Source: a bacterium (GTDB lineage Bacteria; Vulcanimicrobiota; JABDET01). Taken from it: 64,000 nt of DNA. Numbering within the stretch: the first letter of the stretch is position 1; every line of letters begins with the position of its first letter. A model generated the notes under the pieces. That model was given only the letters and a program-made list of their open reading frames with translations. It had not been told where the DNA came from and made no database searches. This document shows positions 15,337 through 60,069 of the stretch, piece after piece. The position numbers were made by a program, and so were the translations under genes. The DNA lies in assembly GCA_021800275.1 (NCBI GenBank), contig JAJYZB010000002.1, positions 70,997 through 134,996 on the forward strand, read 5' to 3'.

Positions 15337-15718
15337 CTTTATAAAGTCTAGAAATTAAATTTTTACACTCAGGATCTTGATATAAAATTTCAAACTGATC
15401 GCTTCTAATTTCCCTGATGATACTCCACTTTTCTTCCAGTGAACGATCAAAATCTTGCTTTGAGAGTAAAGAGAGTTTAAGCAGACCATGAAGAACTATA
15501 AAATCACTGGAGGAACCAAATGAAACATGATAAATTTCTTTTTCATTTGCGACGTTTGGAAACTGATCAAGCACTTCAAGCAAATAAACATTCTTTTTAT
15601 CATGAATTTTGTACCAGACAGCAGCAAGAAGGGGGCTGTCATCCAATCTTTTATGTCTCCTTATTAATTTCTTTAAATGCGTTTTTTGAAAATTATAAAA
15701 CGCGTTGTCATCTTGCAT
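15290..15718 (-). CDS. Hypothetical protein immediately upstream of and overlapping the HEPN gene (possible cognate partner)
   Basis: 142 aa, ATG start 21 nt after the upstream gene's stop; 47 nt overlap with the HEPN ORF; 'VSFGSSSDFIVL' only loosely resembles a nucleotidyltransferase motif. Confidence 0.35.
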   Translation of the reverse strand: MQDDNAFYNFQKTHLKKLIRRHKRLDDSPLLAAVWYKIHDKKNVYLLEVLDQFPNVANEKEIYHVSFGSSSDFIVLHGLLKLSLLSKQDFDRSLEEKWSIIREIRSDQFEILYQDPECKNLISRLYKDEQPQREKQRFLKTG

Positions 15719-17545: not shown

Positions 17546-17619
17546 GATGCTTCTAAATTTCCTTATCTAATGCTTTTTTCCTGGAAAGCACCTTCATGGA
17601 ATCGGTATGACTGCGTATT

Positions 17620-18270
17620 CTAATTTTCTAAAATTAAAATTCCTTCTCGAATTGCATATTTGATCAGTTCTGTTCGATTGTGCAGATTCAATTTTTCCAT
17701 GATATGATATCTGTGGGTCTGGACAGTTTTTACAGAAACAAACAATTGATCCGCAATCTCCTGATTTGATTTTCCATCCGCTAAAAGCTTTAAAACTTCT
17801 AATTCACGAGGGCTTAACGTTCGCTGCATAGAAGCTAATGTTTCCCCTGATGCGCACCCTTTTAAAAGAGTTCGTGTTAATGAAGGAGAAAAGTAAAGAT
17901 CCCCCTCATAAGCTGTAAAAATAGCTGAAATCAGCTCCTCTCGATTCGTTCCTTTTAAAATATATCCTGAACTCCCTGCTTGAACAGCTGAAAAAAAATA
18001 GTATTCTGACTCATATTGAGTCAGAATTAAAATCTTAATCTCTGGATAAAGTTTTTTAATGGTTTGAGTGGCTTTTAATCCATTCAAAATAGGCATCCCA
18101 ATATCCATTAAAATAACATCTGGCTTCAATCTTCCCGCCAGCTCCACTGCTTCTTCTCCATGGGAAGCTTTTCCAATGACTGAAATTTCAGGTTCCCGTG
18201 ACAGCAGACTTTCAAGCCCTTCCCTTAAAATCGTATGATCATCAGCTATCAGCACTTTAATCATGGACAA
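17620..18270 (-). CDS. Two-component response regulator, NarL/LuxR family
   Basis: REC domain ('VLIADDH...DVILMDIGMP') plus LuxR HTH ('LSPRELEVLKLLADGKSNQEIADQLFVSVKTVQTH'). Confidence 0.85.
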   Translation of the reverse strand: MSMIKVLIADDHTILREGLESLLSREPEISVIGKASHGEEAVELAGRLKPDVILMDIGMPILNGLKATQTIKKLYPEIKILILTQYESEYYFFSAVQAGSSGYILKGTNREELISAIFTAYEGDLYFSPSLTRTLLKGCASGETLASMQRTLSPRELEVLKLLADGKSNQEIADQLFVSVKTVQTHRYHIMEKLNLHNRTELIKYAIREGILILEN

Positions 18271-19395
18271 TCACTTCCTTTTTTGAAAGTTGCTCTGCTG
18301 CTCTGATGAAGAAAGCCCTGAATCTCCTGCAGGGAAAACAGCAGAAGGAAGAAAAACCTTTATTGAAGCGCCTCTGTTTATGGAAGAGTGCACTTCAAAG
18401 ATTCCTGAGAGTAAAGAAGCCCTTTCTGCGATTCCTAAAAGTCCCATACCCTGACTTGTTTTTCGAGCTGTTTCGACATCAAATCCAATGCCATTATCTT
18501 CAACTTTTAACATCACTCCATCGGGCTGAAAACAGAGTCGTACTGAAACTTTTGTCGCTTTAGCGTGCTTCATAATATTATTCGCAATCTCCTGAGAAAT
18601 CCGATAAACTGCAACTTCTGCAGCATCAGACAAAAGAATCTCCTTTCCTTCTGTGGCAAAATCTGTGTGGATTCCATTTTTTCCTAATTCTTCTCGAAAA
18701 AGTGACAAGAGTGCCTGTTTCAGCCCCATGTCTTCCAGCAGCATAGGACGTAGATTAAAAACCAGGTGCCTCAGTTCTTTTAAATCTTGATCAATCACTT
18801 GTTTCACCTGTGCCAAAGTCATTTTACACGAATCCAAGACTGAAGAATCAAGAGGAGCAGAAATGAGCAGTTCCACTTCTTCAATCCGCATTCTGAGGGT
18901 GGTCAGCCCCTGCATGGTTTCATCATGAAGATCACGAGCAATCCGCCGGCGTTCTTCTTCCTGCGCAAAAATCAATCTCTCAGCTAACAGATGAGATCTC
19001 TGTCTCTCTAAATTGAGAACATCCAGCATTTGATTTAAAGATCGAACACACAAATTGACTAAAGGTCCTGATGCAGGATGAGAAGCAGCGCGAAAATTTA
19101 AATCACCTTTTGCCACCTGATCCATGGCTTGAGATAAAGAACGGAGTGGAGCAAGAACCATTTTAACAAACCAGGAGCTTAACCAAAGGGTTCCTGCAGC
19201 AGATAAAACAATCAACAAAATCCCCTGACTATGGGTTAAAGGAAGACCTCTCATTCCAATGAATACTAAAAAACACCAGAACAAAACAATAAAAAAATTG
19301 GCCCAGAAAATTTTCTTGGATGTGTCCAGTCTTTTAAACCACTGCAGAAATTCTGTCGAATCATCCAAAGAAGAAATCTTTTTAGAATCTGTCAT
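18271..19395 (-). CDS. Sensor histidine kinase (HisKA_3/NarX-type) with N-terminal TM segments
   Basis: 'ERRRIARDLHDETMQGLTTL' H-box, 'EDNGIGFD' and 'GMGLLGIAERA' HATPase motifs; directly abuts the response regulator gene. Confidence 0.8.
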   Translation of the reverse strand: MTDSKKISSLDDSTEFLQWFKRLDTSKKIFWANFFIVLFWCFLVFIGMRGLPLTHSQGILLIVLSAAGTLWLSSWFVKMVLAPLRSLSQAMDQVAKGDLNFRAASHPASGPLVNLCVRSLNQMLDVLNLERQRSHLLAERLIFAQEEERRRIARDLHDETMQGLTTLRMRIEEVELLISAPLDSSVLDSCKMTLAQVKQVIDQDLKELRHLVFNLRPMLLEDMGLKQALLSLFREELGKNGIHTDFATEGKEILLSDAAEVAVYRISQEIANNIMKHAKATKVSVRLCFQPDGVMLKVEDNGIGFDVETARKTSQGMGLLGIAERASLLSGIFEVHSSINRGASIKVFLPSAVFPAGDSGLSSSEQQSNFQKRK

Positions 19396-19591
19396 AACCT
19401 AACCTCTTGCATCATAGATCCAATAATCCTCTATGCTTTTTTTATCGTATCAGAAGTTTCCTGGTTTTTCTATCAGTCAGATACCTGATTTGTTATACTG
19501 GTCTTCTGGCCTCTTTTCTGCAGCATAAAAAATCAGGTGTTTTACTGATACTCTGCATTCATTTTTTATGCTATGATAGAATTTGTTCTTG

Positions 19592-20263
19592 ATGATTATG
19601 GACTTAAGCGTTCGAGAGACCTCTTCTCTATTAAATATTTCTGAAAATAAAATTTACCGCTGGATTCAAAACGGTTCCATTCCCGCACACAAGCTGCATG
19701 AACAGTATTACTTAAACCGTGTATATCTCCTGGAATGGGCTGCTGCACATCATTATTCTGTGTCAAACCCATCTTTTAACATTAATCCACTGCAGCAGAA
19801 GGCTCCTCTTTCCATGGCTTTAAAAAAAGGAGGAATTTTTTATAATCTTTCTGGCGTCTCTAAAAAAGAAATTTTCCAAGCAGCAGCACATCTGCCTGGA
19901 ATCCCCAGCTGCATCAATCGCAAGCTTTTAAATCAAATTTTACAAAGGGACAGCATGACTCCACTCCTTTCTTTTACTAAAGAGGGAATCTTTATTCCTC
20001 ATCCTCGATATCCATTTGTATTTTCGATTCCTGATCCAGTCCTGCTGCTGTGTTCTCTCAAGTCACCTGTTATTTTTACCCTGAACTGTCCACCTGCTCA
20101 AGCTTTTTTTCTTCTTTTTTCCCCCTCTGTTCTCTTCCACATTCAAATCACAACTCTCTTAACAGTTTTCCTATCCGATGCTGTTCTGAAGGATCTCATT
20201 CTTCTGAGCGCCCCTGGAGAAGCTATTCTAGATCGCATCAAAACTCTAGAAGCGCAAATTTGA
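19592..20263 (+). CDS. Helix-turn-helix (excisionase/MerR-like) protein fused to a PTS EIIA(Ntr)-like domain
   Basis: 'LNISENKIYRWIQNGSIPAHKL' HTH; C-terminal 'GIFIPHPRYP' resembles the EIIA-2 His region; stop TGA overlaps the ATG of the next gene (TGATG at 20261-20265); start ambiguous (TTG 19583, ATG 19592 or 19598). Confidence 0.5.
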   Translation: MIMDLSVRETSSLLNISENKIYRWIQNGSIPAHKLHEQYYLNRVYLLEWAAAHHYSVSNPSFNINPLQQKAPLSMALKKGGIFYNLSGVSKKEIFQAAAHLPGIPSCINRKLLNQILQRDSMTPLLSFTKEGIFIPHPRYPFVFSIPDPVLLLCSLKSPVIFTLNCPPAQAFFLLFSPSVLFHIQITTLLTVFLSDAVLKDLILLSAPGEAILDRIKTLEAQI

Positions 20264-22257
20264 TGCAGGTACTTATTTTAATTTCGCTGCTGATCCTTGG
20301 CACAGTCCCTCTGCTGATCCTGTTTTTCGCTGAAAACGAAAAGCTAATTCTTGCTGTTGGAACAATTGGAAATGGAGCTGCCTGCTGCATCGGTTTAACT
20401 GCAGCTCTTGGAGCTCTTATAACGGGAGAAACCTGCTCTTTAAAAGCAGTATGGTCACTTCCCTTGGGAAAAGTTGCCATTGGACTTGACCCTCTTTCCT
20501 CCTTTTTCCTGGTCTGTATTTTCCTGGTATCCGGGCTTTCAGTCCTGTATGGAAATGGATATTTTTCTTATGAGATAGGAAAAAAAAAGTTAAAGTCCCC
20601 TCTTATTTTTTCCAGCCTGTTAACAGCTTCTATGGTAGGAGTCGTCATTTCGCGAAATGGAATTTTATTCCTTATGTCATGGGAGATCATGTCTCTTTCC
20701 TCATTTTTCCTGGTCACCTTTGAAAATGAGCGCAGAGAGGTTCGCAGAGCAGGGATCTTATATCTCATGGCATCCCAGGCAGGGGCTCTTCTTCTTTTTG
20801 TCTTATTCGCTCTTTTAAACCGAAATTCAGGCAGCTTTAATTTTAATTCTTTTCACATTTCTTATGCGAAAATGCCGCGGACTGCTGATCTCTGTTTTTT
20901 ATTAGCGCTGCTTGGATTTGGGACAAAAGCAGGTTTCTGGCCTATTCATATTTGGCTGCCTGAAGCCCATCCAGCTGCTCCAAGCCCTGTTTCTGCTGTC
21001 ATGTCAGGGGTGATGATTAAAATGGGAATTTACGGAATTCTACGCACCCTTCTTTTTTTAGGAACTCCGCCGCTCTGGTGGGGAGGAGTGGTGCTTGGAA
21101 TAGGAGTAGTTTCAGGAATATTAGGAGTCCTGCATGCTTTAACAGAGCATGATCTAAAACGTCTTCTGGCCTATCACAGTGTTGAAAATATTGGAATTAT
21201 TACAATTGGGATTGGACTCGGTCTTTTAGGCAAGGCTTTAAATAACCCTGTCGTCACTTTTTTAGGATATGCTGGAGCCCTGCTGCACGTGCTGAATCAT
21301 GGAATTTTTAAAGGGCTGCTGTTCCACAGCGCTGGAAGTGTGATTCATGCAGCTGGAACAAGGAATATGGAAGAGCTTGGAGGATTGTACCGCTTTATGC
21401 CAGTAACAGGAAGCGCTTTTTTAGTTGGTTCTATCGCCATCTGCGGACTCCCCCCTTTCAATGGATTTATCAGTGAATGGCTGCTCTATATGGGAGGATT
21501 CATCGGTTCTTCTCATTTTTTTTCGACAGCAGGGGAGCTGCTCTGTCTAACTGCAGTACCAGCTTTAGCCCTGATTGGCGGGCTGGCAGTTACCTGTTTT
21601 GTAAAAGCTTTTGGGATCACTTTTCTCGGAAATCCCAGAGTCAATATCCCTGTTAAGATCCATGAATCCAATCACTCCATGCTGATCCCCATGATTCTAG
21701 GCTCTTTTCTGTGTGTTCTGATCGGCTGCTGGCCCCTTGGAATTCTCAATATCATCACTCCTGCTGCAGCAGTTTTAGGAGGGGGAGCTAGTGGCACAGC
21801 ATCTGTGCTGAAAACTCTTGCTAGAGTCCCTTACTTTGCAGCCCTGCTCTTTATTCTAATCCTTTTATTTTCCCTGCTGCGGTGGAAACTGCTTCAAAAT
21901 CGCGATGTCAGAACAGCTTCTACCTGGAGCTGTGGTTATACCACCTATCATACAAGAATGCAGTACACGGCTTCCTCTTTTGCTGAACCAATCCTCACCC
22001 CTTTTGCATCCTTAATCCATTCTCAGATACGGCATGGAAAAAAAGTGGATGGGTATTTTCCCGCTGAAGCCCGATATGAAAAACATTTAGGGGATATTGC
22101 TCATCAAAAATGGTTTCTCCCGTCTATTCGAAAAGCAGTCGGCTTTCTTTCGCAGCTTCGCATCCTGCAGCATGGGAAAGTCCAACTGTACCTTCTCTAT
22201 ATTGGTGGAGCTTTTGTCATGCTTTTAATATGGCTCTCCATCTGGGGAGGTCATTGA
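20263..22257 (+). CDS. Proton-pumping antiporter-like membrane subunit (HyfB / NuoL / MrpA family)
   Basis: 'WPIHIWLPEAHPAAPSPVSAVMSG' signature, many TM helices; ATG at 20263 overlaps the upstream stop. Confidence 0.8.
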   Translation: MQVLILISLLILGTVPLLILFFAENEKLILAVGTIGNGAACCIGLTAALGALITGETCSLKAVWSLPLGKVAIGLDPLSSFFLVCIFLVSGLSVLYGNGYFSYEIGKKKLKSPLIFSSLLTASMVGVVISRNGILFLMSWEIMSLSSFFLVTFENERREVRRAGILYLMASQAGALLLFVLFALLNRNSGSFNFNSFHISYAKMPRTADLCFLLALLGFGTKAGFWPIHIWLPEAHPAAPSPVSAVMSGVMIKMGIYGILRTLLFLGTPPLWWGGVVLGIGVVSGILGVLHALTEHDLKRLLAYHSVENIGIITIGIGLGLLGKALNNPVVTFLGYAGALLHVLNHGIFKGLLFHSAGSVIHAAGTRNMEELGGLYRFMPVTGSAFLVGSIAICGLPPFNGFISEWLLYMGGFIGSSHFFSTAGELLCLTAVPALALIGGLAVTCFVKAFGITFLGNPRVNIPVKIHESNHSMLIPMILGSFLCVLIGCWPLGILNIITPAAAVLGGGASGTASVLKTLARVPYFAALLFILILLFSLLRWKLLQNRDVRTASTWSCGYTTYHTRMQYTASSFAEPILTPFASLIHSQIRHGKKVDGYFPAEARYEKHLGDIAHQKWFLPSIRKAVGFLSQLRILQHGKVQLYLLYIGGAFVMLLIWLSIWGGH

Positions 22258-23183
22258 TGCTGGTTCTTGACATTTTTATTCACCTGATCCTCCTAATTTT
22301 ATTCCCTCCTTTTTTAATTGGATTTATCAATAAAGTAAAAGCCTGGACAGCAGGAAAACAAGGTCCTTCTTTATTTCAAGTCTATTATGACATAGAAAAG
22401 CTTTTAAAAAAAGGGGCTGTATACAGCAGCACAGCCACCTGGATCTTTAAAGCAGGACCTATCCTGACTTCTGCCAGTCTTGTCTGCGCAGGATTAATCC
22501 TTCCCATGATGAGAAATCACTCTACTTTTGGATTCACAGGAGATCTCATTTTTTTTGTCTATCTCTTTGCTCTTGGACATTTTTTTCTTTTAATTTCAGC
22601 CCTTGATGTGGGATCCAGTTTTGAAGGAATGGGAGCCAGCAGAGGAGCTGCTTTTGGAACTTTCGCAGAACTGGCTCTTTTTTCAGCCTTGGCGATTTTC
22701 TGCATCCCTGCTGGAAGCCCTACTTTTAAATCTGTTTTCACAGCTTTACCCTGGAAAACATGGGGTTTTGCTCACCCCGCATATTTAGCAGGAGCCCTCG
22801 TTCTATTGGCTGTGCTGCTGACAGAAAATTCGCGGCTTCCCATTGATGATCCCAATACCCATCTTGAACTCACCATGATCCATGAAGTCATGGTTCTGGA
22901 TCACGGAGGTCCTGATTTTGCTTTTATCCTTTACAGCAGCTCTCTGAAACTACTTCTGCAGGCAGACCTTTTGATTCACTTCCTGCTTCCTTTCCCTTCT
23001 CATCTCACAGAGGAAGGAGTTCTTCTTCTCCTCAGCGGTATTTTGGGGATAGGAATTCTGATTGGGATTTTAGAGTCTGTTACTGCGCGGCTCAGACTGC
23101 AGCGAATCCCTCAATTTTTAATCGGCGCTTTTATCCTGACAGTTTTAGGGTTAATGATCTCTTTTTATCGAGGGGCGCCGTGA
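22257..23183 (+). CDS. HyfC / HycD / NuoH-like membrane subunit
   Basis: N-terminal 'FLIGFINKVKAWTAGKQGPSLFQVYYDIEKLLKK' (NuoH-like); TGATG overlap with the upstream gene; GGGGAGG RBS. Confidence 0.75.
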   Translation: MLVLDIFIHLILLILFPPFLIGFINKVKAWTAGKQGPSLFQVYYDIEKLLKKGAVYSSTATWIFKAGPILTSASLVCAGLILPMMRNHSTFGFTGDLIFFVYLFALGHFFLLISALDVGSSFEGMGASRGAAFGTFAELALFSALAIFCIPAGSPTFKSVFTALPWKTWGFAHPAYLAGALVLLAVLLTENSRLPIDDPNTHLELTMIHEVMVLDHGGPDFAFILYSSSLKLLLQADLLIHFLLPFPSHLTEEGVLLLLSGILGIGILIGILESVTARLRLQRIPQFLIGAFILTVLGLMISFYRGAP

Positions 23184-23833
23184 TCCCTTACGTTAATTTT
23201 ATCCTGACTGCTGCTATTGCTCTAAATCTTTATATTGTCTCTTCAAGCAGACTGAGGAGCTGTGTTCAGGCAGCTGCTTTACAAGGGAGTGTTTTAGCTT
23301 TTCTTCCTATTCTGCTCTGGGGAACCCAGGCTTCTAAACTAGAAATCATCAATCTCCTTTTAATCGGGATTGGAACCCTGGGTGTGAAAGCCCTCCTGAT
23401 TCCTTTCCTTATGTTTCGTTCTATTCAAGAAGCCAATGTGCGCCGAGAAGTAGAACCTTTTATCAGCCTCCATCTTTCTCTTTCTGCTGCAGCAGTTCTG
23501 GTGATCATTTCCTTTTGGATTTCGAAGGTGACGGGTCTCCCCCATCCTCCCTCTGCCTATCTTGTTCCAGCGGCTTTTTCTGGGATTTTGATTGGGTTCT
23601 TAATCATGGTCAGCAGACAGAAAGCGATCACTCAGGTGATCGGCTACTTAATCTTTGAAAATGGAATCTTTATTTTTGGACAAATACTGTTTCAAAAGAT
23701 CCCCTTAGCTGTAGAATTAGGGGTGCTGCTGGATCTTCTTGTGGGGATTCTTGTCATGGGAATCGCCATTTATCATATCAGCCGAGAGTTTGACCATATT
23801 GATGTCAGTCGTTTGGATGGATTAAAAGGATGA
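23180..23833 (+). CDS. HyfE-like small membrane subunit
   Basis: 217 aa polytopic membrane protein; GTG start overlapping the upstream stop (GTGA); position in operon matches hyfE. Confidence 0.6.
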   Translation: MIPYVNFILTAAIALNLYIVSSSRLRSCVQAAALQGSVLAFLPILLWGTQASKLEIINLLLIGIGTLGVKALLIPFLMFRSIQEANVRREVEPFISLHLSLSAAAVLVIISFWISKVTGLPHPPSAYLVPAAFSGILIGFLIMVSRQKAITQVIGYLIFENGIFIFGQILFQKIPLAVELGVLLDLLVGILVMGIAIYHISREFDHIDVSRLDGLKG

Positions 23834-25296
23834 ACCACAGCTCCCTTCTCATCTGGATTTTCCTTCTTTTTCCTGCTGCAGCTGCAGTGGGATGTCTTAT
23901 CCTCAGAAAAGCAAGCTGGATATTTCGTTTTATTATGGTTGGGGCCGCAGTGGATGCAGGGCTTGGTTTTATCCTTATTCAATCACTTTTTCAAAAAGGC
24001 GCCCTGCGCGCAGCAGGTTCATGGCTTCGAGTTGATACTCTTTCAGCTTATTATATTCTCATCATGATTCTCGTATTTTTAATGGCTTCAATTTATGCTG
24101 CCCGATATTTCAATGAGGAGATTCAAAAAGGATCCTTAAGTGACAAAACAGCTGCTCGATTTGGATCCCTCTGGTTTGGAACTTTAAGTGTTATGACCCT
24201 GGTCCTTCTTTCTAACAATCTCGGATTAATGTGGGTTGGAATTGAAGCCACCACGTTAGCCACGACGTTTCTTATCAGTCTGCATCCTTCTCCATTATCT
24301 TTAGAAGCCGCCTGGAAATATGTGCTGATCTGTTCTGTTGGGATTGCTCTTGCCTTCCTTGGAACTCTTTTTGTGGGAGCAGCAGACAGCAGCAGTCTAA
24401 TATGGACCAAACTGGCAAGCCATGCTTCAATCTTAAATCCTCAGTTAATGAAAATGGCTTTTATTTTCCTTCTGATAGGATATGGCACAAAAGTAGGGCT
24501 GGCTCCTCTTCACACCTGGCTGCCGGATGCCCACAGCCAGGCCCCTGCGCCAGTCTCAGCAGTTTTTTCCGGATTCATGGTCAATGAAGCCATGTACTGC
24601 ATTATGCGTTATCTTCCAATTGTTAATGGAGCAGTTGGGAATTCCCATTTTTCAAGGGATCTTCTTTTATTTTTTGGCATCTTTTCAATGGCTGTCGCAG
24701 CAGTCTTTATTCTATTTCAACATGATATTAAAAGACTGCTGGCTTACAGTACAGTGGAACATCTAGGAATTACTGCAATTGGCTTAGGACTTGGAGGACT
24801 CGGGGTTTTTGCAGCGCTTTTTCATACGTTAAACCACTCCATCTGCAAAACAACTGGTTTTTTGTCTGCAGGAAAATTAGGCCAAAAATACGGCACTCAT
24901 GATTTAAGAAAAATGCCAGGAACTCTTCAGAAAGAACAGGTCTGGGGATTGGGTCTATTCTTGAGCCTTATTATCTTAGTCGGATCTGCCCCTTTTGCTG
25001 TGTTCATGAGTGAACTCCTGATCATCAAAGCAGCTGTGGATCATCACCACTTTCTGCTTTTAACATTTTTTCTAACAGCTCTGGGAATTGTTTTTATAGG
25101 AGTTCTTTCTCACGCAGTTTCAGCAGTTTGGGGAGAACCCCCAGGTGATCATGTTCTTCCTGAACCCAATCACCTGGGAGATATGCTGCTGGTTGGAGCC
25201 CCACTTCTTTTACTTTTAATATTAGGAATCTGGATGCCTCATCCACTTCGAGAGCTTTTAGAAAAATCAACTTTTATTTTAACAGGAAAACAATGA
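23830..25296 (+). CDS. HyfF / NuoN / NuoM-like antiporter-type membrane subunit
   Basis: 'LAPLHTWLPDAHSQAPAPVSAVFSG' signature; ATGA overlap with the upstream gene. Confidence 0.8.
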   Translation: MNHSSLLIWIFLLFPAAAAVGCLILRKASWIFRFIMVGAAVDAGLGFILIQSLFQKGALRAAGSWLRVDTLSAYYILIMILVFLMASIYAARYFNEEIQKGSLSDKTAARFGSLWFGTLSVMTLVLLSNNLGLMWVGIEATTLATTFLISLHPSPLSLEAAWKYVLICSVGIALAFLGTLFVGAADSSSLIWTKLASHASILNPQLMKMAFIFLLIGYGTKVGLAPLHTWLPDAHSQAPAPVSAVFSGFMVNEAMYCIMRYLPIVNGAVGNSHFSRDLLLFFGIFSMAVAAVFILFQHDIKRLLAYSTVEHLGITAIGLGLGGLGVFAALFHTLNHSICKTTGFLSAGKLGQKYGTHDLRKMPGTLQKEQVWGLGLFLSLIILVGSAPFAVFMSELLIIKAAVDHHHFLLLTFFLTALGIVFIGVLSHAVSAVWGEPPGDHVLPEPNHLGDMLLVGAPLLLLLILGIWMPHPLRELLEKSTFILTGKQ

Positions 25297-26798
25297 ACGT
25301 AAACTCTTCTTCACCCTCTGTGTTCTGGATCCGAAATGGAGACTCCATCCCATTATCCCGGGTTCCTTTCTACACTCCTGAAGATTTCCGCAGAATCTGC
25401 CTTGAACAGGTTTATTCAGGGGGAAGGCTTGCTCTGCTTTCATCAGTTCCCGCTCTCTACGGCAGAAAAGGAGGGAAGACCCTCCTGGCTCTTGCAGCTG
25501 ATGATGAGAATGGAAAAATTGGAGTTCTGTGCGCTGATTTAGAAGAGAAAAACTCTTATTTAAGCCTTTCTTCAGAAATTCCGCAGGCTCAGGGATTTGA
25601 GAGAGAAATCTTTGAAGAACAAGGGATTCTTCCAAAAAATCACCCCTGGCTTAAGCCCTTAAGAAAACAAGAAACTCCTTATCCGTTTTTTAAAGTAAAA
25701 GGGGAGGGAATACATGAAGTGGCTGTTGGTCCTGTTCATGCAGGAATTATTGAACCAGGGCATTTTCGATTTCAATGTTCAGGAGAAACTGTTCACCATT
25801 TAGAAATCCAGTTAGGGTATCAGCACAGAGGAGCTGAAGAGCTTTTTCTTCGATCCTCACCTGAACGAAGATTGGTCATCTCAGAATCTTTTGCTGGTGA
25901 TACGGTTATTGGACATGCTCTGGCTTACTGCATGGAAATTGAAGCCCTTTCTAAGTCAGAACCCCCACTTTATGCCCATATTCTTCGAGGGGCAGCCCTT
26001 GAATTAGAACGAATTTCGAATCATATAGGGGATCTAGGGGCTCTGTGCGGTGATATTGGGTATCTTCCTGGAGCTGCCTGGTTCGGGAGAATCAGAGGGG
26101 AATTTTTAAACTGGCTAATGGAACTATCCGGGAACCGATTTGGAAGAGGACTTCTGAAGCCAGGAGGGGTGAGGTTTAATTTGAGCGCTCAACAAACAGA
26201 AAATTTCTTAATCCGCTTAGATAAAGCAGAAAGAGATCTAAAAGAAACAGCTGAACTGACCTTCAATCATCCTGCAGTTTGTTCAAGATTTGAAGAAACA
26301 GGGATCGTTTCGCGCGCTGCTGCAGAGGCTTTAGGAATGGTAGGACCAGCAGCCCGCTCCAGCGGCTGTGAAAGAGATGTCAGAAGGGATCACCCCTTTG
26401 GGATTTTTCGATTTTATCATATTCCAACAGCTGCAGCAGATACAGGAGACGTCATGGCTCGCGCTGTGCTGAGGTGGCTCGAAACAGAACGTTCTATTCA
26501 ATTTATCCGGGAGCAGCTGACAGGACTCCTTGAACAATCGCTGGAAGTTGAACTGCAGACAGAAATTCAAAAAATGTCTCCAGAACACCTTGCTGTTTCA
26601 ATGGTAGAAAGCTGGAGAGGAGAAATTCTGCATTTGGCTGTCACCACTTCAAAAGGGGAAATAACAGGATATAAAATTGTGGATCCTTCTTTCCACAATT
26701 GGTTTGGACTGGCTCTTGCTTTACGCGGAGGCCAGATCTCTGATTTTCCTTTGTGCAATAAAAGTTTTAACCTTTCGTACTCTGGACATGATTTATAA
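25293..26798 (+). CDS. Fused NuoC-NuoD-like 'large subunit' (HycE/HyfG-like) lacking both NiFe-binding cysteine motifs
   Basis: NuoC-like 'FEREIFEEQGILPKNHPWLKPLR'; NuoD-like 'GPVHAGIIEPGHFRF...LGYQHRGAEE'; L1 position reads 'ERRLVISESFAGDTVIGH' (no CxxC); C-terminus reads 'DPSFHNW' instead of DPCxxC. Confidence 0.75.
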   Translation: MNVNSSSPSVFWIRNGDSIPLSRVPFYTPEDFRRICLEQVYSGGRLALLSSVPALYGRKGGKTLLALAADDENGKIGVLCADLEEKNSYLSLSSEIPQAQGFEREIFEEQGILPKNHPWLKPLRKQETPYPFFKVKGEGIHEVAVGPVHAGIIEPGHFRFQCSGETVHHLEIQLGYQHRGAEELFLRSSPERRLVISESFAGDTVIGHALAYCMEIEALSKSEPPLYAHILRGAALELERISNHIGDLGALCGDIGYLPGAAWFGRIRGEFLNWLMELSGNRFGRGLLKPGGVRFNLSAQQTENFLIRLDKAERDLKETAELTFNHPAVCSRFEETGIVSRAAAEALGMVGPAARSSGCERDVRRDHPFGIFRFYHIPTAAADTGDVMARAVLRWLETERSIQFIREQLTGLLEQSLEVELQTEIQKMSPEHLAVSMVESWRGEILHLAVTTSKGEITGYKIVDPSFHNWFGLALALRGGQISDFPLCNKSFNLSYSGHDL

Positions 26799-26821
26799 AT
26801 ATTGATCATGGAGAAAAACCA

Positions 26822-27607
26822 ATGTTTAAACTTTTAAAAGCAAGACTGCACCAGGGATATCAAACTTCCCGATTTCCTGAAGCAGAGATAAAACTCCCTG
26901 AGCGATTTAGGGGAAAACCTGTCCTTGATCCTGCCCCTTGTCAAGAGAACTGCTCAGCCTGTGCAGCAGTTTGTCCTACACAGGCGATAACTCTTGATCC
27001 TTTTCAAATCGATCTCGGAGCCTGTTTGTTCTGCCCTCTCTGCCAGGAAGTATGTCCCGAGAAAAAAATTCATTATACCCCTGATTATCATTTAGCCGTC
27101 AATTCCAAAAAGGACTTAAAAATTTCAGAAAAAGAAGCAAAATTAGCAGAGGCGCTGAAGACTGAAATGCTGAAAGTGTTGGGACGATCCTTAAAACTCC
27201 GTCAGGTTTCTGCAGGGGGATGCAGTGGATGTGAAGCAGAGCTGACAGCCTTAGGAAATGTCGTGTTTGATTTGAGCCGCTTCGGCATACAATTTACAGC
27301 ATCCCCTCGTCATGCTGATGGAATTGCTGTAACAGGGCCTGTTTCAAAAAATATGGAAGCAGCGCTGCGAGAAACCTATGCAGCAGTCCCCTCTCCTAAA
27401 ATAGTGATTGCTGTAGGAGCCTGCGCCATCAGCGGCGGCCCTTTTGCAGGAGCCAAAGCAGCTCTCCTAGGAATTCCTGAAGATATCCCTGTGGATCTGT
27501 ATATCCCAGGCTGCCCTCCACATCCCTTAACCATTCTGGATGGCCTGCTGCGATTATTGAACCGAATCAAAGGATCTCCTTCCCCATTCCAAAAATCAGG
27601 TGTTTAA
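26822..27607 (+). CDS. Fusion of a 2x[4Fe-4S] ferredoxin domain (HyfH/NuoI-like) with a NuoB/HycG-like small subunit
   Basis: 'CQENCSACAAVCP' and 'CLFCPLCQEVCP' clusters; then 'GGCSGCEAE', 'GACAISGGPF', 'PGCPPHP' small-subunit cysteines; GGAGA RBS. Confidence 0.75.
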   Translation: MFKLLKARLHQGYQTSRFPEAEIKLPERFRGKPVLDPAPCQENCSACAAVCPTQAITLDPFQIDLGACLFCPLCQEVCPEKKIHYTPDYHLAVNSKKDLKISEKEAKLAEALKTEMLKVLGRSLKLRQVSAGGCSGCEAELTALGNVVFDLSRFGIQFTASPRHADGIAVTGPVSKNMEAALRETYAAVPSPKIVIAVGACAISGGPFAGAKAALLGIPEDIPVDLYIPGCPPHPLTILDGLLRLLNRIKGSPSPFQKSGV

Positions 27608-27708: not shown

Positions 27709-28131
27709 GTGAAAATGCAACCAAAGAAAAAAGTAAAAAAGGGTCCTCTTTTGTTAAAAGCCGTCAAAAAGAGACCAGGGCAAAAGTCAGATCCTGAGAG
27801 TTCTGCCTCAAATTTTACAAAGAACGATTTATTTGGGATAAAAGACTGCCTCGGAATCTCTGATAAAGAACTAGCTCAAATCCTTTTAATTGAGCCTGAA
27901 GTCTTAACAGAACCTGATTTTAAAAACATTCCTATTTCCAGAATCGCTGATCTGCAGAAGGTCGTCAGCAGGGCTGTCGAAATCTTTACTTTAAAAGGAA
28001 TGAGTGAGTGGTTTCATCAACCCCATCCTGAACTCGAGGATCAGTCCCCTCTGGAAGTTTTGAGAGCGCCAGAAGGGGATCAAAAAATTCTGCAGCTTCT
28101 TGCAGCAATTGAATGGGGGGTACCTGTATGA
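27709..28131 (+). CDS. Xre-like antitoxin with DUF2384 (MbcA/ParS-type) toxin-binding domain
   Basis: C-terminal 'WFHQPHPELEDQSPLEVLRAPEGDQKILQLLAAIEWGV' matches the DUF2384 signature; stop overlaps the downstream RES gene start. Confidence 0.65.
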   Translation: MKMQPKKKVKKGPLLLKAVKKRPGQKSDPESSASNFTKNDLFGIKDCLGISDKELAQILLIEPEVLTEPDFKNIPISRIADLQKVVSRAVEIFTLKGMSEWFHQPHPELEDQSPLEVLRAPEGDQKILQLLAAIEWGVPV

Positions 28132-28703
28132 ATATTTTAATGCAGGAAGGAACATTTTACCGAATTGTCATAGGCTGCCGCAGAAAAGAGATTCATAAGC
28201 CTGCCGAGAACTTAATTTTCGGAGGACGATTTACCCCCCCAGAACTTTCCAATACTCTTTATTTAAGCTCTTCTGTTCAAGGATGTCTGGAAGAAATTCG
28301 ATTTAGAATCGGAGGGGATCTAAGAAAAGTTAAACCTCTTGTTTTAGGAACTTTTCAGACGCGATTTTCAAAAATATTAGATTTAACAGATGAAGCTGTT
28401 GTTAAAGTTTTTTTAGGAGATAATCACAGTAAAATTTTTTCCTCAAACTCTGCAAATTACGAGACAACACACCGTCTTGCAGCAGCAGCTGTAAAACGCG
28501 GTTTTGAAGGAATTTTGTATCATTCTGCTGTTTCTCCAGAACATAAAAATCTGGCTGTTTTTTTAGACAATCTGGGTCCAAATTCGTTTATTAAGAAGAT
28601 TTCTATAGATAAAGTGAATATCGGGTGTCAGCCTTTGTCTGGCCGCAGCGCCTGCAGCAGATCTTCAGAATCGGTCTGGCAGAAGGTTTATCAGGTTATT
28701 TAA
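28128..28703 (+). CDS. RES-domain toxin (MbcT/ParT-like NAD+-targeting family)
   Basis: 'GGRFTPPELSNTLYLSSSVQGCLEEI' and 'GILYHSAVSP' carry the R, E and S positions; ATG at 28128 overlaps the antitoxin stop (ATGA). Confidence 0.7.
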   Translation: MNILMQEGTFYRIVIGCRRKEIHKPAENLIFGGRFTPPELSNTLYLSSSVQGCLEEIRFRIGGDLRKVKPLVLGTFQTRFSKILDLTDEAVVKVFLGDNHSKIFSSNSANYETTHRLAAAAVKRGFEGILYHSAVSPEHKNLAVFLDNLGPNSFIKKISIDKVNIGCQPLSGRSACSRSSESVWQKVYQVI

Positions 28704-28807: not shown

Positions 28808-29488
28808 ATGCTGAAAGTAGGAGTGGTTTTAAGTGGATGTGGAGTCATGGATGGTTCAGAAATTCATGAAGCCGTTTTGACCCTGTATTTCCTTGACAAA
28901 CAAGGTGCAGAGGTGGTTTTTATGGCTCCTGACCTATCCTTTAAAGCGGTGGACCATTTATCAGGGAGAGAAACAGGGGAAATGCGGAATGTTCTCGTGG
29001 AATCCGCCAGGATTGCCCGCGGAAAAATTCGAGATATAAAAGAGGTGAAAGCTGCTGAATTAGATGCTTTGATCTTACCAGGAGGATTTGGAGCCGCTAA
29101 AAACCTCTGCGATTTTGCTTCTAAAGGAGCTGGTGCTGCCCCTCATCCAGAAGTTGCAAGACTGGTGAAAGAGATGCATCAGTTTAAAAAACCGATCGGA
29201 GCAGTCTGCATTTCTCCTGCTTTAATCGCCAGTATTTTTAAAGGCACATCCATAACACCCCTTCTAACCATTGGAACAGACTCCTCAACAGCAGAAGCTC
29301 TAGAAAAAATGAATGCCAGACATGAACCCCATTCTGTTCATGAAATTTCAGTTGATCGAGAGAATAAAATTGTCAGCACTCCTGCTTATATGCTGGGACA
29401 GCGAATCTCAGAAGTTGGTTCAGGAATTGAAAAATTAGTCAGTGAAGTTTTGTCGCTGGCTCGAGAAAAAGCAGGAGCGGTCCGGTAA
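28808..29488 (+). CDS. elbB: DJ-1/PfpI-family glyoxalase ElbB
   Basis: 'KVGVVLSGCGVMDGSEIHEAVLTL' N-terminus and 'AVCISPALIA' nucleophile elbow. Confidence 0.8.
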   Translation: MLKVGVVLSGCGVMDGSEIHEAVLTLYFLDKQGAEVVFMAPDLSFKAVDHLSGRETGEMRNVLVESARIARGKIRDIKEVKAAELDALILPGGFGAAKNLCDFASKGAGAAPHPEVARLVKEMHQFKKPIGAVCISPALIASIFKGTSITPLLTIGTDSSTAEALEKMNARHEPHSVHEISVDRENKIVSTPAYMLGQRISEVGSGIEKLVSEVLSLAREKAGAVR

Positions 29489-29644: not shown

Positions 29645-29995
29645 TTAAAATCGGCTTGAAGTTGTAATTTTTTTTATAATTTCAAACCTATTTTTGACAG
29701 GGGTATGCTGCGATAAAAAGGAGATGAAATCTGATGGCGATTCTGCATCAAAAACGGAAATAAACTTATGAGGATTATCGCAAACTCCCTTTCTGAACGC
29801 AAAAGCTGATACTTCACTTCTGCTTTCGTCGTTTTCTAATCTCTGACATAATCTCTTTTGCTGTGCCAGAACTGAGACGGCCTGCTTTAATATCTCCACT
29901 GGCTTTTCGTTCTCCTTCCTGCCAGGCTGGAGACCCGACAGGATCATTTCTAGAGCCATTGGTGGAATTTCTATCCACGGCAGAAATATGCCCAC
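29645..29995 (-). CDS. Hypothetical ORF of doubtful validity
   Basis: 116 aa ORF with no recognisable domain; an overlapping alternative frame also encodes a long open stretch. Confidence 0.2.
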   Translation of the reverse strand: MGIFLPWIEIPPMALEMILSGLQPGRKENEKPVEILKQAVSVLAQQKRLCQRLENDESRSEVSAFAFRKGVCDNPHKFISVFDAESPSDFISFLSQHTPVKNRFEIIKKITTSSRF

Positions 29996-30046
29996 CTTTT
30001 AGGTGCTTAACTTTGCCGCCAAAATCTCGTGGAACTGATAATATTT

Positions 30047-30445
30047 TTAAGTTTGCTCAAATCGCCAGAAGTCGCTCGGTTTAATCACAGGAATTCCATC
30101 AAAATTCTTAAGAGCCAGTAAATCGCTGTCGCCACTGATAAGACAGTCAGAGCCTCCATTCCGCCCTGCAGCTAGAATCCCATTATCATCCGGATCTCGG
30201 CAAATAGAAGGGATAGGTAATTTAACATCCACTAGGCAGGCATTTTCTCTAATAAATTCCAAAAACAGACCTACATTATCTTTTGAAAAGTGAAGTTTAT
30301 TCATTAATTTGTCTAAAATCTCATGCAGAATCTGCTGGGATGTCAAAAGAGAATGATTTAACAGGCAGTGGTCCAGAAGTTCGCTGCACGCGCCTGGAGA
30401 AACAAATGCAGCAATCCAGATATTAGTGTCAAAGAAAACTTTCAC
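30047..30445 (-). CDS. PIN-domain ribonuclease toxin (VapC-like)
   Basis: 'KVFFDTNIWIAAF', 'RDPDDNGILAAG', 'DCLISGDSDLL' PIN acidic motifs; GTG start overlapping the upstream reading frame. Confidence 0.75.
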   Translation of the reverse strand: MKVFFDTNIWIAAFVSPGACSELLDHCLLNHSLLTSQQILHEILDKLMNKLHFSKDNVGLFLEFIRENACLVDVKLPIPSICRDPDDNGILAAGRNGGSDCLISGDSDLLALKNFDGIPVIKPSDFWRFEQT

Positions 30446-43089: not shown

Positions 43090-43098
43090 CCCAGAGCC
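42331..43098 (+). repeat. Direct repeat copy 1 (3' part of HD-GYP paralogue 1)
   Basis: Aligns base for base with 44108-44875 at a constant 1777 bp offset; the 3' portion is nearly identical by eye. Confidence 0.8.
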
Positions 43099-43123
43099 AT
43101 AGGCTTAAGACCGGAGACCAAAA

Positions 43124-43153
43124 TTTACAAAACGTTAATCTTTCCATCATAAT
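43124..43153 (+). promoter_or_regulatory. Sigma70-like promoter (TTTACA-N18-CATAAT) with a conserved AAAACGTTAATCTT spacer motif
   Basis: About 50 nt upstream of the 43204 gene; near-duplicate of the 40355-40384 element. Confidence 0.4.
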
Positions 43154-43203
43154 GCTGCAATACTTGTATGTTATACTAAAACCAGGAAGAGGAGGCATTA
43201 ATA

Positions 43204-44866: not shown

Positions 44867-44875
44867 CCCAGAGCC
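44108..44875 (+). repeat. Direct repeat copy 2 (3' part of HD-GYP paralogue 2)
   Basis: See copy 1; both copies end with the same stop context 'TAACCCAGAGCC'. Confidence 0.8.
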
Positions 44876-60056: not shown

Positions 60057-60069
60057 CTGGTTCTCTGCA

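What the first reader, a model, noticed from the sequence alone, without database searches (positions are those of the whole stretch)
19592..27607. Hyf-like respiratory operon with group-4 hydrogenase architecture but a non-hydrogenase catalytic subunit
Seven consecutive genes are translationally coupled (TGATG, GTGA or ATGA overlaps at 20263, 22257, 23180, 23830 and 25293). Their order follows hyfB-C-E-F-G-(H+I) of hydrogenase-4 / formate hydrogenlyase: antiporter-like, NuoH-like, HyfE-like, antiporter-like, NuoCD-like, ferredoxin plus NuoB-like. The large subunit has no NiFe ligands, so this is a complex-I-like, Ehr-type module rather than a hydrogenase. No electron-input module (NuoEFG, formate dehydrogenase, hypA-F maturases) lies in the window.
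Basis: partly seen in the sequence, partly recalled or inferred. Interest (0 to 1): 0.7.

Follow-up and report, generated by a model that had tools for sequence, protein, structure and literature searches.

The report
Ehr-type hydrogenase-like membrane complex operon
This is a well-preserved copy of the widespread but still uncharacterised "Ehr" complex, a membrane-bound relative of formate hydrogenlyase and respiratory complex I that has lost its nickel-iron centre, encoded together with a conserved PTS-type regulator gene.

Summary

**What is there.** Window 19592-27607 (+) holds seven tightly packed genes:
- an HTH_17 + PTS-EIIA regulator;
- HyfB-like, HycD/NuoH-like, HyfE-like and HyfF-like membrane subunits;
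- a fused NuoC-NuoD/HycE-like large subunit;
- a fused HycF/HyfH ferredoxin + HycG/NuoB small subunit.

**Not a hydrogenase.** All four NiFe cysteines are replaced (A201, T204, S495, G498). The protein ends exactly where mature HycE ends.

**Family.** Gene order and 47-48% large-subunit identity match the Geobacter ehrA-B-C-D-L-S cluster. It is therefore a new member of the known Ehr class (Ech-hydrogenase-related), whose function is still unknown in papers up to 2026.

**Conserved features.**
- The family occurs in at least 596 species genomes across many phyla and is strongly conserved. This argues against a dead relic.
- It keeps the FeS wire, the hydrogenase/complex I substrate-proton pathway, the coupling loops and the antiporter charges.
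- It has an invariant family-specific pocket (D203, N489, K490, Y496, D500).
- The regulator gene accompanies the cassette in 41 of 49 informative loci, with an invariant phospho-acceptor His.
- No electron-input module is linked, either in the window or in 80 related loci.

**Best reading.** A ferredoxin-fed, ion-translocating oxidoreductase that reduces and protonates an unidentified acceptor.

Interest is moderate.

The parts
19396..19591 (.). Divergent intergenic region between a histidine-kinase gene (minus strand) and the operon; candidate control region with inverted repeats
   Evidence: inverted repeat with 30-nt arms at 19471-19500 / 19521-19550, and a perfect 12-nt inverted repeat at 19522-19533 / 19561-19572; the + strand folds at -33.6 kcal/mol, z = -3.67. 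Sigma-70 and terminator scans gave no more sites than shuffles. Function not shown.
19592..20263 (+). HTH_17 (excisionase/MerR-like) + PTS_EIIA_2 protein; presumed phospho-controlled regulator. The public gene call uses an alternative start at 19598.
   Evidence: Pfam PF12728 2e-11 and PF00359 8e-11. The stop overlaps the next start (TGATG). Homologs are present in 41/49 informative related loci and lie directly upstream of a HyfB-like gene in at least 31. His137 in the IPH motif is invariant in 43/43.
20263..22257 (+). EhrA: HyfB/HycC-like antiporter-like subunit with an ND3-like C-terminal extension
   Evidence: NF005086 hydrogenase 4 subunit B 1e-181, below its cutoff. HycC 7z0s_C 1.4e-73 over residues 19-585. 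Retains the TM5 Glu (SWEIM), TM7 Lys (GTKAG), TM8 Lys (MIKMG), TM12 Lys (IFKGLLF) and the conserved WxCGY loop Cys that aligns to the AWVCGY loop of HycC, presumably the Cys537 named in PMC9474812.
22257..23183 (+). EhrB: HycD/MbhM/NuoH-like membrane anchor subunit
   Evidence: PF00146 5.5e-27. HycD 8.5e-25 and MbhM 3e-19, but complex I/NDH-1 NuoH-type subunits only 2e-4. DVGSSFEGMGASR and the TM5-6 loop ENSRLPIDDPNTHLELTMIHE are near-invariant in 62 homologs.
23180..23833 (+). EhrC: HyfE-like small membrane subunit
   Evidence: NF008556 hydrogenase 4 membrane subunit 5e-21; weak PF00420 (NuoK-like).
23830..25296 (+). EhrD: HyfF-like antiporter-like subunit
   Evidence: NF005044 hydrogenase 4 subunit F 9e-122. 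Best PDB match is MbsH 6u8y_H at 1.2e-31. TM5 Glu (GIEAT), TM7 Lys (GTKVG) and TM12 Lys (SICKT) are present; the TM8 Lys position is Asn-Glu.
25293..26798 (+). EhrL: fused NuoC + NuoD/HycE-like large subunit without NiFe ligands
   Evidence: PF00346 1e-33. HycE 1.3e-35, MbhL 2.9e-32, Nqo4 2e-21. AlphaFold model pLDDT 84.5 / pTM 0.88. Best Foldseek hit is HycE 7z0s_E with TM 0.84. HycE C241/C244/C531/C534 correspond to A201/T204/S495/G498. The protein ends at L501, the position of the HycE Arg that closes the DPCxxCxxR motif.
26822..27607 (+). EhrS: fusion of a HycF/HyfH/NuoI-like 2x[4Fe-4S] ferredoxin domain (about residues 1-100) and a HycG/MbhJ/NuoB-like domain carrying the proximal [4Fe-4S] cluster
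   Evidence: PF12838 and PF01058. MbhJ 9e-31, HycG 5.5e-30, HycF 1.4e-15 for residues 1-99. Eight ferredoxin Cys (40, 44, 47, 51, 68, 71, 74, 78) are present in 57-66 of 70 homologs. NuoB-type Cys 134, 137, 201 and 231 are at least 95% conserved, in hydrogenase-type CxxC spacing.

Best explanation
The region encodes a Geobacter-type Ehr (Ech-hydrogenase-related) complex plus its co-encoded regulator.

Shown here:
- Six subunits (EhrA, B, C, D, L, S) are homologous one-for-one to HyfB/HycC, HycD, HyfE, HyfF, HycE/HyfG and HycF+HycG.
- The nickel-iron site is gone and no C-terminal maturation peptide exists, so it cannot be a [NiFe] hydrogenase.
- The chain of three [4Fe-4S] clusters is kept.
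- The hydrogenase/complex I substrate-proton pathway is kept: E154 on the beta1-beta2 loop, and R442, N493, H244, E397 and R355, which correspond to HycE E193, R478, D529, H284, E437 and R395.
- The interface loop motifs examined (ND3-type, ND1-type and beta1-beta2) and the charged residues of both antiporter-like subunits are kept.
- The former metal pocket carries a family-specific invariant polar set: D203, N489, K490, S495, Y496, D500.

Inferred:
- A soluble low-potential carrier (ferredoxin or flavodoxin) docks directly on the HycF-like domain, as in MBH and Ech. The basis is that no HycB/HyfA, FdhF or NuoEFG partner is linked anywhere.
- Electrons pass through the three clusters to the remodelled pocket. 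There a non-proton acceptor is reduced and protonated. A membrane quinone is the leading candidate and a small soluble oxidant is the alternative.
- This chemistry drives H+/Na+ translocation through EhrB/C and the two antiporter-like subunits. The reverse reaction, ion-gradient-driven ferredoxin reduction, is equally compatible with the evidence.
- The upstream HTH-EIIA protein, with its invariant phospho-acceptor His, probably sets operon expression according to the phosphorylation state of a PTS or PTS-Ntr relay.
For: - Architecture and coupling.
- Loss of all four Cys, and the C-terminus at the end of the L2 motif; in 80/80 family members the protein ends in ..D(L/M/R).
- Match to the named Ehr cluster.
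- Strong purifying selection across phyla: mean column identity is 60-71%, and the C-terminal DFPLCNKSFNLSY.G.DL motif is near-invariant.
- FeS ligands conserved.
- The proton-pathway and loop residues named in the FHL structure paper map onto invariant Ehr residues through the alignment and the invariant list.
- Antiporter residues and the ND3-type loop Cys.
- Fold confirmed.
- No conserved partner gene in 80 loci. None in the window.
- The HycF C-terminal Cys quartet that contacts FdhF lies outside the matched region (query 1-99 against HycF 1-106) and has no counterpart in the fusion.
- Regulator linkage and its invariant His.
Against: - Neither the electron donor nor the acceptor is identified by any result here.
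- The complex I quinone ligands are absent. The Nqo4 Tyr87 position is the invariant Gly202, and the His38 region is Ile153/Glu154.
- EhrB resembles HycD far more than NuoH, which weakens the quinone idea.
- The regulator is missing from 8 of 49 informative loci. Geobacter carries an extra IclR gene inside the cluster, so PTS control is not universal.
- The ferredoxin-domain Cys are degenerate in some members, for example Geobacter argillaceus.
- Published proteomics link Geobacter Ehr abundance to growth on formate. That fits an unlinked formate dehydrogenase partner better than ferredoxin.
- No expression or biochemical data exist for this organism.
Confidence: 0.6

Rival explanations
1. It is a genuine group 4 (Hyf/FHL-2-type) [NiFe] hydrogenase that evolves or consumes H2.
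For: Subunit order and best matches are all to hydrogenase-4 / FHL subunits. Public annotation calls the protein 'Ni,Fe-hydrogenase III large subunit'.
Against: All four NiFe-ligating Cys are replaced, in the window and throughout the family. There is no C-terminal extension for endopeptidase maturation. No hyp genes and no HyfA/HycB or FdhF were found in the window. HydDB deliberately excludes Ehr as non-hydrogenase.
Confidence: 0.02
2. It is a ferredoxin:quinone oxidoreductase that works like an 11-subunit complex I / NDH-1. The former NiFe pocket binds the quinone head group through new ligands such as Y496, D203 and H499.
For: - It belongs to the same superfamily, and the proton pathway to the pocket is intact.
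- The canopy pair N243/H244 is of the complex I type: N185/H186 in NDUFS2 against S283/H284 in HycE.
- There are two pumping subunits.
- The family occurs in aerobes and anaerobes that normally make quinones.
- The literature suggests interaction with quinones.
Against: Tyr87 and His38 equivalents are absent. The cluster ligation is CxxC rather than the tandem Cys of N2. EhrB is HycD-like, with a complex I/NDH-1 NuoH-type match of only 2e-4. H499 is Phe in 21/80 members.
Confidence: 0.3
3. It docks an unlinked formate dehydrogenase or another oxidoreductase (the 'FDH-Ehr' model) rather than ferredoxin.
For: Proposed for Margulisbacteria and Saganbacteria. Geobacter Ehr subunits are most abundant on formate.
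Against: No FDH, HycB/HyfA or NuoEF gene lies next to the cassette in 80 loci from many phyla or in the window. The HycF C-terminal Cys quartet that contacts FdhF in FHL has no counterpart in the fusion.
Confidence: 0.12
4. It is a non-functional evolutionary relic of a hydrogenase, drifting under relaxed selection.
For: Stated for G. sulfurreducens KN400 in PMC13194489.
Against: Large subunits from different phyla share 47-70% identity, with more than 100 invariant columns in the 60-sequence alignment A2. These include the FeS ligands, the proton pathway and a new pocket motif. The cassette is intact and translationally coupled. The subunits are detected as proteins in Geobacter.
Confidence: 0.02
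5. It is an MBS/Mbx-like sulfane-sulfur (polysulfide) reductase.
For: MBS is the one characterised NiFe-less relative. EhrD's best PDB match is MbsH.
Against: The large subunit matches MbsL only weakly (3e-14, against 1e-35 for HycE). No Mrp-type small subunits are present. The family is common in aerobic soil lineages such as Gemmatimonadota, Myxococcota and Alphaproteobacteria.
Confidence: 0.05

Closest known systems
Ehr (Ech-hydrogenase-related) complex of Geobacter sulfurreducens: ehrA-1/B/C/D/L = GSU0739-0743, ehrS = GSU0745, ehrA-2 = GSU0734
   Same: Same subunit set and order (NuoL/HyfB-like, NuoH-like, HyfE-like, HyfF-like, large, small). The large subunit lacks the NiFe Cys. Geobacter argillaceus and Geomonas limicola loci with this order are 47-48% identical in EhrL and share the C-terminal NKSFNLSY.G.DL motif.
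   Different: The window has a single EhrA and places the HTH-EIIA gene at the head of the same operon. Geobacter has a second ehrA paired with the HTH-EIIA gene on the opposite strand, an IclR gene between ehrL and ehrS, a partly degenerate ferredoxin domain, and Phe instead of His499. G. sulfurreducens EhrL itself was not aligned.
E. coli hydrogenase-4 / formate hydrogenlyase (Hyf; Hyc, PDB 7Z0S)
   Same: Best sequence match for EhrA (HycC), EhrB (HycD) and EhrL (HycE), second-best after MBH MbhJ for the NuoB half of EhrS (HycG), and the best match for its ferredoxin half (HycF). NCBIfam places EhrA, EhrC and EhrD nearest HyfB, HyfE and HyfF. Also shared: the fused NuoC-NuoD large subunit, CxxC ligation of the proximal cluster, the beta1-beta2 loop Glu, the proton-pathway residues and the ND3-type loop Cys.
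   Different: No NiFe ligands and no C-terminal maturation peptide. No HyfA/HycB, HyfD, HyfJ, FdhF, HyfR or hyp genes. HycF and HycG are fused into one protein that lacks the HycF C-terminal metal site.
Respiratory complex I / NDH-1 Q-module (NuoB, C, D, H, I)
   Same: Same superfamily and fold: Foldseek TM about 0.8 to E. coli NuoCD. It is NiFe-less, and the N243/H244 canopy pair matches NDUFS2 N185/H186.
   Different: No Tyr87/His38 quinone ligands, no tandem-Cys N2 cluster and no NuoEFG. The membrane anchor is much closer to HycD than to NuoH.
Pyrococcus furiosus MBS (membrane-bound sulfane reductase, PDB 6U8Y)
   Same: A NiFe-less descendant of a group 4 hydrogenase that still uses ferredoxin and pumps ions. 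MbsH is the best PDB match of EhrD.
   Different: Weak similarity of the catalytic subunit (3e-14), no Mrp module, and a different pocket motif.

Membership tests
Ehr (Ech-hydrogenase-related) complex, Geobacter type | Gene set and order ehrA(NuoL/HyfB-like)-ehrB(NuoH-like)-ehrC(HyfE-like)-ehrD(HyfF-like)-ehrL-ehrS | tested here: met
   Window order. Published G. sulfurreducens list. Same order in 80 related loci, including Geobacter, Geomonas and Geothrix.
Ehr (Ech-hydrogenase-related) complex, Geobacter type | Large subunit homologous to group 4 [NiFe]-hydrogenase large subunits but lacking the two CxxC NiFe-binding motifs | tested here: met
   HycE alignment: C241/C244/C531/C534 correspond to A201/T204/S495/G498. 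Family statistics.
Ehr (Ech-hydrogenase-related) complex, Geobacter type | Sequence relatedness to EhrL of Geobacter | tested here: met
   47-48% identity over nearly full length to Geobacter argillaceus (L058), Geomonas limicola (L064) and Geobacteraceae MAGs. The L058 protein's nearest relatives include G. pickeringii and G. grbiciae proteins. GSU0743 itself was not available for alignment.
Ehr (Ech-hydrogenase-related) complex, Geobacter type | Small subunit retaining the proximal [4Fe-4S] ligands | tested here: met
   Cys134, 137, 201 and 231 are at least 95% conserved.
Group 4 [NiFe] hydrogenase (Hyf/Hyc, group 4a) | L1 (RxCGxCxxxH) and L2 (DPCxxCxxH/R) cysteine pairs ligating NiFe | tested here: not met
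   alignment. L1 reads ESFAGDTVIGH and L2 reads FNLSYSGHDL.
Group 4 [NiFe] hydrogenase (Hyf/Hyc, group 4a) | C-terminal extension removed by a maturation endopeptidase | tested here: not met
   The protein ends at L501, aligned to the Arg that closes the HycE DPCYSCTDR motif. All 80 homologs end at the same position.
Group 4 [NiFe] hydrogenase (Hyf/Hyc, group 4a) | hypA-F maturation genes in the genome | not testable with these tools
   None among the window ORFs scanned.
Respiratory complex I (NuoD/NuoB quinone module) | Quinone head-group ligands Tyr87 and His38 (T. thermophilus Nqo4 numbering) | tested here: not met
   Nqo4 alignment: Tyr87 aligns to the invariant Gly202, and His38 to Ile153 (Glu154 next to it). 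The loop alignment is uncertain by 1-2 residues.
Respiratory complex I (NuoD/NuoB quinone module) | Tandem-cysteine ligation of cluster N2 in NuoB | tested here: not met
   GGCSGCE, i.e. CxxC as in HycG and MbhJ. The contrast is described in PMC9474812.
MBS/Mbx sulfane reductase | Mrp-type multi-subunit membrane module and an MbsL-type catalytic subunit | tested here: not met
   Only HyfB/C/E/F-type membrane subunits are present. MbsL matches at 3.3e-14, against 1.3e-35 for HycE.
PTS EIIA (PF00359) phospho-relay domain (first gene) | EIIA_2 fold with the conserved phospho-acceptor His in a G-I-x-I-P-H motif | tested here: met
   PF00359 8e-11 above its cutoff. His137 is invariant in 43/43 homologs. 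Actual phosphorylation is not testable here.

The most novel reading that the evidence does not exclude
Ehr is a distinct fourth functional type within the complex I / group 4 hydrogenase superfamily, alongside H2-evolving, quinone-reducing and sulfane-reducing enzymes. On this reading it is a ferredoxin-driven ion pump whose former NiFe cavity has become a metal-free polar active site (D203, N489, K490, Y496, D500). The site is fed by the ancestral proton pathway and reduces an acceptor not yet considered for this superfamily. Expression would be tied to the PTS/PTS-Ntr phosphorylation state through a dedicated HTH-EIIA regulator.
Probability: 0.25. Interest if true: 0.7.

Novelty: new member of a known kind. 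Interest (0 to 1): 0.4.

Why it matters
Ehr clusters were named in Geobacter about twenty years ago and are reported routinely in metagenome papers. Every paper read here still calls their role unknown, and one calls the complex non-functional.

This window adds one more intact example from a poorly placed uncultured lineage. The comparative work around it gives concrete handles:
- The redox wire, the substrate-proton pathway and the coupling loops are all under strong selection, so the complex is an active proton-coupled redox enzyme.
- The remodelled pocket has a short list of invariant residues suitable for mutagenesis.
- No partner dehydrogenase is genetically linked.
- A PTS-type regulator travels with the cassette.

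If the acceptor were identified, it would fill a gap in the evolutionary series from hydrogenase to complex I. It would also correct widespread 'hydrogenase' or 'NuoC/NuoD' misannotation in several hundred species at least.

Tried and rejected
- The first literature query ('Ehr' by word start) returned only electronic-health-record and Ehrlichia papers.
- Rfam and tRNA scans of the window found nothing.
- Promoter and terminator scans across the operon gave no more sites than shuffled sequence. They give no evidence about transcript boundaries.
- A PDB sequence search with the regulator found nothing.
- Taxonomy could not be resolved. LepA has unnamed relatives at 75-90% identity, and the best named hits (Bacillota, Eremiobacterota) reach only 64-67%. 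Cluster look-up gave only JGI functional names.
- A search for conserved neighbours by all-vs-all clustering of ORFs from 81 loci found only the cassette, antisense artefacts and generic response-regulator domains.
- SulP-family transporter genes lie next to the cassette in 5 loci. This was judged too sparse to build on.
- I considered a new Zn or Fe site made from C162, C488, C497, H499 and D203. I rejected it as an essential feature because C497 is Ala/Ser in 19/80 (including this window), H499 is Phe in 21/80 and C162 is Ala in 7/80.
- The upstream inverted repeats are not recognisably conserved in three other loci.
- The AlphaFold model has low confidence exactly at the beta1-beta2 loop (123-155) and the C-terminal tail (494-501). 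The pocket geometry therefore could not be assessed.

Full report
**1.

ORF listing and public gene calls place seven same-strand genes at these coordinates:
- 19592 (or 19598)-20263
- 20263-22257
- 22257-23183
- 23180-23833
- 23830-25296
- 25293-26798
- 26822-27607

I read each junction in the sequence. It is TGATG at 20263 and 22257, GTGA at 23180, and ATGA at 23830 and 25293. The last gene follows a 23-nt spacer containing GGAG. So five start/stop overlaps chain the first six genes, and the seventh is closely appended.

The operon is slightly more G+C-rich (0.43-0.44) than its flanks (0.39-0.42). It is strongly T-skewed, as expected for membrane proteins.

**2. What the genes are**

Pfam and NCBIfam and sequence searches of the PDB agree gene by gene.

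| Gene | Assignment | Key matches |
|---|---|---|
| 1 | HTH_17 + PTS_EIIA_2 protein, not a complex subunit | Pfam, |
| 2 | HyfB-like | NF005086 E=1e-181; HycC 1.4e-73 |
| 3 | HycD/NuoH-like | HycD 8.5e-25; MbhM 3e-19; complex I/NDH-1 NuoH-type only 2e-4 |
| 4 | HyfE-like | NF008556 5e-21 |
| 5 | HyfF-like | NF005044 9e-122; best PDB hit MbsH |
| 6 | Fused NuoC-NuoD/HycE-like large subunit | HycE 1.3e-35; MbhL 2.9e-32; Nqo4 2e-21; MbsL 3e-14 |
| 7 | HycF/HyfH/NuoI-type two-cluster ferredoxin domain (residues 1-99, HycF 1.4e-15) fused to a HycG/MbhJ/NuoB domain | MbhJ 9e-31; HycG 5.5e-30 |

An AlphaFold model of the large subunit has pLDDT 84.5 and pTM 0.88. Its best structural match is HycE of the E. 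coli FHL structure (TM 0.84), followed by the fused NuoCD of E. coli complex I.

All NCBIfam hits fall below the curated cut-offs. No curated model covers this family. Public annotation calls the large subunit 'Ni,Fe-hydrogenase III large subunit', 'hydrogenase' or 'NADH-quinone oxidoreductase subunit C'.

**3. It is not a hydrogenase**

In the HycE alignment the L1 segment sdrvCgiCgfaH reads sesfAgdTvigH. The L2 segment sldpCysC reads sfnlSysG. All four NiFe ligands are therefore replaced by A201, T204, S495 and G498.

The protein ends at L501. This position aligns with the Arg that closes the HycE DPCYSCTDR motif, so there is no maturation peptide.

Forty larger window ORFs were scanned against Pfam. 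None is a hyp gene, a formate dehydrogenase, a HycB/HyfA-type protein or NuoE/F/G.

**4. It is a member of the known Ehr class**

The supplementary gene table of PMC7894505 lists the Geobacter sulfurreducens Ech-hydrogenase-related complex:
- ehrA-1 (NuoL-like) GSU0739
- ehrB (NuoH-like) GSU0740
- ehrC (HyfE-like) GSU0741
- ehrD (HyfF-like) GSU0742
- ehrL GSU0743
- ehrS GSU0745
- a second ehrA-2 at GSU0734

The phyla include Planctomycetota, Verrucomicrobiota, Gemmatimonadota, Spirochaetota, Myxococcota, Acidobacteriota, Bacteroidota, Omnitrophota, Elusimicrobiota and Desulfuromonadota (Geobacter, Geomonas, Pelobacter).

In the 80 loci retrieved, the order B-C-E-F-G-HI recurs, sometimes with two B genes. 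Geobacter argillaceus (L058) shows exactly the published Geobacter layout. That includes an extra gene between ehrL and ehrS, here an IclR-type regulator, and a divergently transcribed second ehrA. Its EhrL is 47-48% identical to the window protein.

I did not have GSU0743 itself, so the link to the type cluster rests on congeners and synteny.

Papers from 2012 to 2026 consistently describe Ehr as lacking the NiFe Cys and as having unknown function.

**5. What the family conserves**

*Overall conservation.* Large subunits drawn from different phyla share 47-70% identity.

*Invariant residues.* Over 80 species-level loci the following never vary: H149, E154, H157, R159, G202, D203, H208, N489, K490, S495, Y496, G498 and D500. 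All of these proteins end at the same position, with ...SY(C/A/S)G(H/F)DL.

*Proton pathway.* Using the residues named in the FHL structure paper and the alignment:

| HycE residue | Role in FHL | Ehr residue |
|---|---|---|
| Glu193 | proton-donating residue on the beta1-beta2 loop | E154 |
| His188 | beta1-beta2 loop | H149 |
| R478 | canopy / proton pathway | R442 |
| D529 | canopy / proton pathway | N493 |
| S283 / H284 | canopy / proton pathway | N243 / H244 |
| E437 | proton pathway | E397 |
| R395 | proton pathway | R355 |

All of these Ehr residues are invariant or nearly so. The N243/H244 pair is the complex I version of that canopy position.

*Coupling loops and antiporter residues.*
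- The ND3-type loop Cys of HycC is kept in EhrA (WSCGY).
- The HycD Phe122 region is kept in EhrB (DVGSSFEGMGASR), as is the TM5-6 loop.
- Both antiporter-like subunits keep the TM5 Glu and the TM7 and TM12 Lys.

*FeS ligands.* The four Cys of the proximal cluster are at least 95% conserved, in hydrogenase-type CxxC spacing. The eight ferredoxin-domain Cys are present in most members and in the window.

*Conclusion.* This pattern is not that of a relic, contrary to the remark in PMC13194489. It points to an enzyme that still moves electrons to the old active-site pocket, still delivers protons there, and still couples this to the membrane arm.

*The pocket itself.* The NiFe ligand positions are now small residues. 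They are surrounded by Ehr-specific invariant polar residues (D203, N489, K490, Y496, D500). The nearby Cys and His residues (C162, C488, C497, H499) are common but not invariant, so an obligatory new metal site is unlikely.

**6. Donor and acceptor**

*Donor.* No additional gene is conserved next to the cassette in 81 clustered loci. The HycF-like domain is fused straight onto the NuoB-like domain. It lacks the HycF C-terminal Cys quartet that contacts FdhF in FHL. The simplest inference is direct docking of a soluble ferredoxin or flavodoxin, as in MBH, Ech and NDH-1. An unlinked formate dehydrogenase, suggested, cannot be excluded.

*Acceptor.* It is not identified.
- For quinone: superfamily precedent and the intact proton path.
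- Against quinone: the Gly at the Tyr87 position, the absence of a His38 equivalent, the HycD-like anchor subunit and the non-N2-type cluster ligation.

**7. The regulator**

The first gene encodes an excisionase/MerR-type HTH joined to a PTS EIIA_2 domain. BLAST against the related loci finds a homolog in 41 of 49 loci that have enough upstream sequence. In at least 31 of these it lies directly upstream of a HyfB-like gene on the same strand. In Geobacter it pairs with ehrA-2, divergent from the main operon.

The His of the IPH motif, the usual EIIA phospho-acceptor, is invariant in 43/43. The eight loci without it have unrelated upstream genes. I found no mention of this linkage in the searchable literature.

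The inference is phosphorylation-dependent transcriptional control by a PTS or PTS-Ntr relay. Neither DNA binding nor phosphorylation is shown.

The 196-bp region upstream contains strong inverted repeats. These are not obviously conserved elsewhere.

**8. Context**

- The organism is an uncultured bacterium. The identical large subunit occurs on an ENA contig of 327 kb, on a JGI metagenome contig and in GCA_027371935.1.
- Its placement is unresolved.
- Upstream lies a divergent HisKA_3 kinase / LuxR-type response regulator pair. Downstream lie an Xre/RES toxin-antitoxin pair and an ElbB-like protein. The kinase and the Xre-type antitoxin recur in the closest relative L004.

**9. Verdict**

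This is a new member of a known but functionally uncharacterised kind. It is not surprising to a specialist as an occurrence.

Its value lies in the family-level constraints listed above, which make the long-open Ehr question more testable. Interest is 0.4.

Noticed in passing
window 19396-19591: The divergent intergenic region upstream of the operon has a 30-nt-arm inverted repeat (19471-19500 / 19521-19550) and a perfect 12-nt inverted repeat (AGCATAAAAAAT ... ATTTTTTATGCT at 19522-33 / 19561-72). As RNA it folds at -33.6 kcal/mol (z = -3.67). It could be an operator or a leader structure. It is not obviously conserved in three other loci.
   Followed up: partly
window 27709-28703: An Xre/ParS-type antitoxin and RES-domain toxin pair lies immediately downstream of the operon. 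An Xre-like antitoxin gene also follows the operon in the closest relative, L004.
   Followed up: partly
window 28808-29488: An ElbB-type DJ-1/PfpI family glyoxalase (NF008747, 1.9e-93) follows the toxin-antitoxin pair.
   Followed up: no
window 41728-46429: Three tandem paralogous genes (453, 465 and 469 aa), each with a C-terminal HD_5/HD domain (HD-GYP-like), preceded by an uncharacterised 429-aa ORF.
   Followed up: no
window 49265-50674: A response-regulator receiver domain fused to an FAD-dependent oxidoreductase domain, overlapping the end of lepA. This is an unusual output domain for a response regulator.
   Followed up: no
window 56091-60155 (minus strand): A 1354-aa ORF whose only Pfam match is a short SpoIVB peptidase S55 segment near the N-terminus. 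The rest is unannotated.
   Followed up: no
window 15740-19395 (minus strand): A PF13941 'MutL' (glutamate-mutase-associated) family protein, followed by a LuxR-type response regulator and a HisKA_3 histidine kinase, divergent from the Ehr operon. The kinase and response regulator recur upstream in the closest relative only.
   Followed up: partly
L039 2561-4360, L067 2357-4264, L075 1500-3320, L042 10383-12371, L043 2242-3915: A SulP-family anion transporter gene lies next to the Ehr cassette in 5 of 80 loci from different phyla. In two of these it is directly upstream of the HTH-EIIA gene. This is too sparse to interpret, but it is the only transporter seen repeatedly.
   Followed up: partly
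L058 11501-12376 (Geobacter argillaceus): An IclR-type regulator gene sits between ehrL and ehrS in Geobacter, in the position of GSU0744. In the same locus the first ferredoxin Cys motif of EhrS is degenerate.
   Followed up: partly
L063 13248-20566: A Geobacteraceae MAG carries a second, more divergent B-C-E-F-G-HI cluster (large subunit about 35% identical) right after the Ehr cluster. I did not check whether it is a true hydrogenase.
   Followed up: no
window 14851-15718 and 29645-30445 (minus strand): Small gene pairs with weak HEPN and PIN_3 matches, probably additional toxin-antitoxin modules, flank the region.
   Followed up: no
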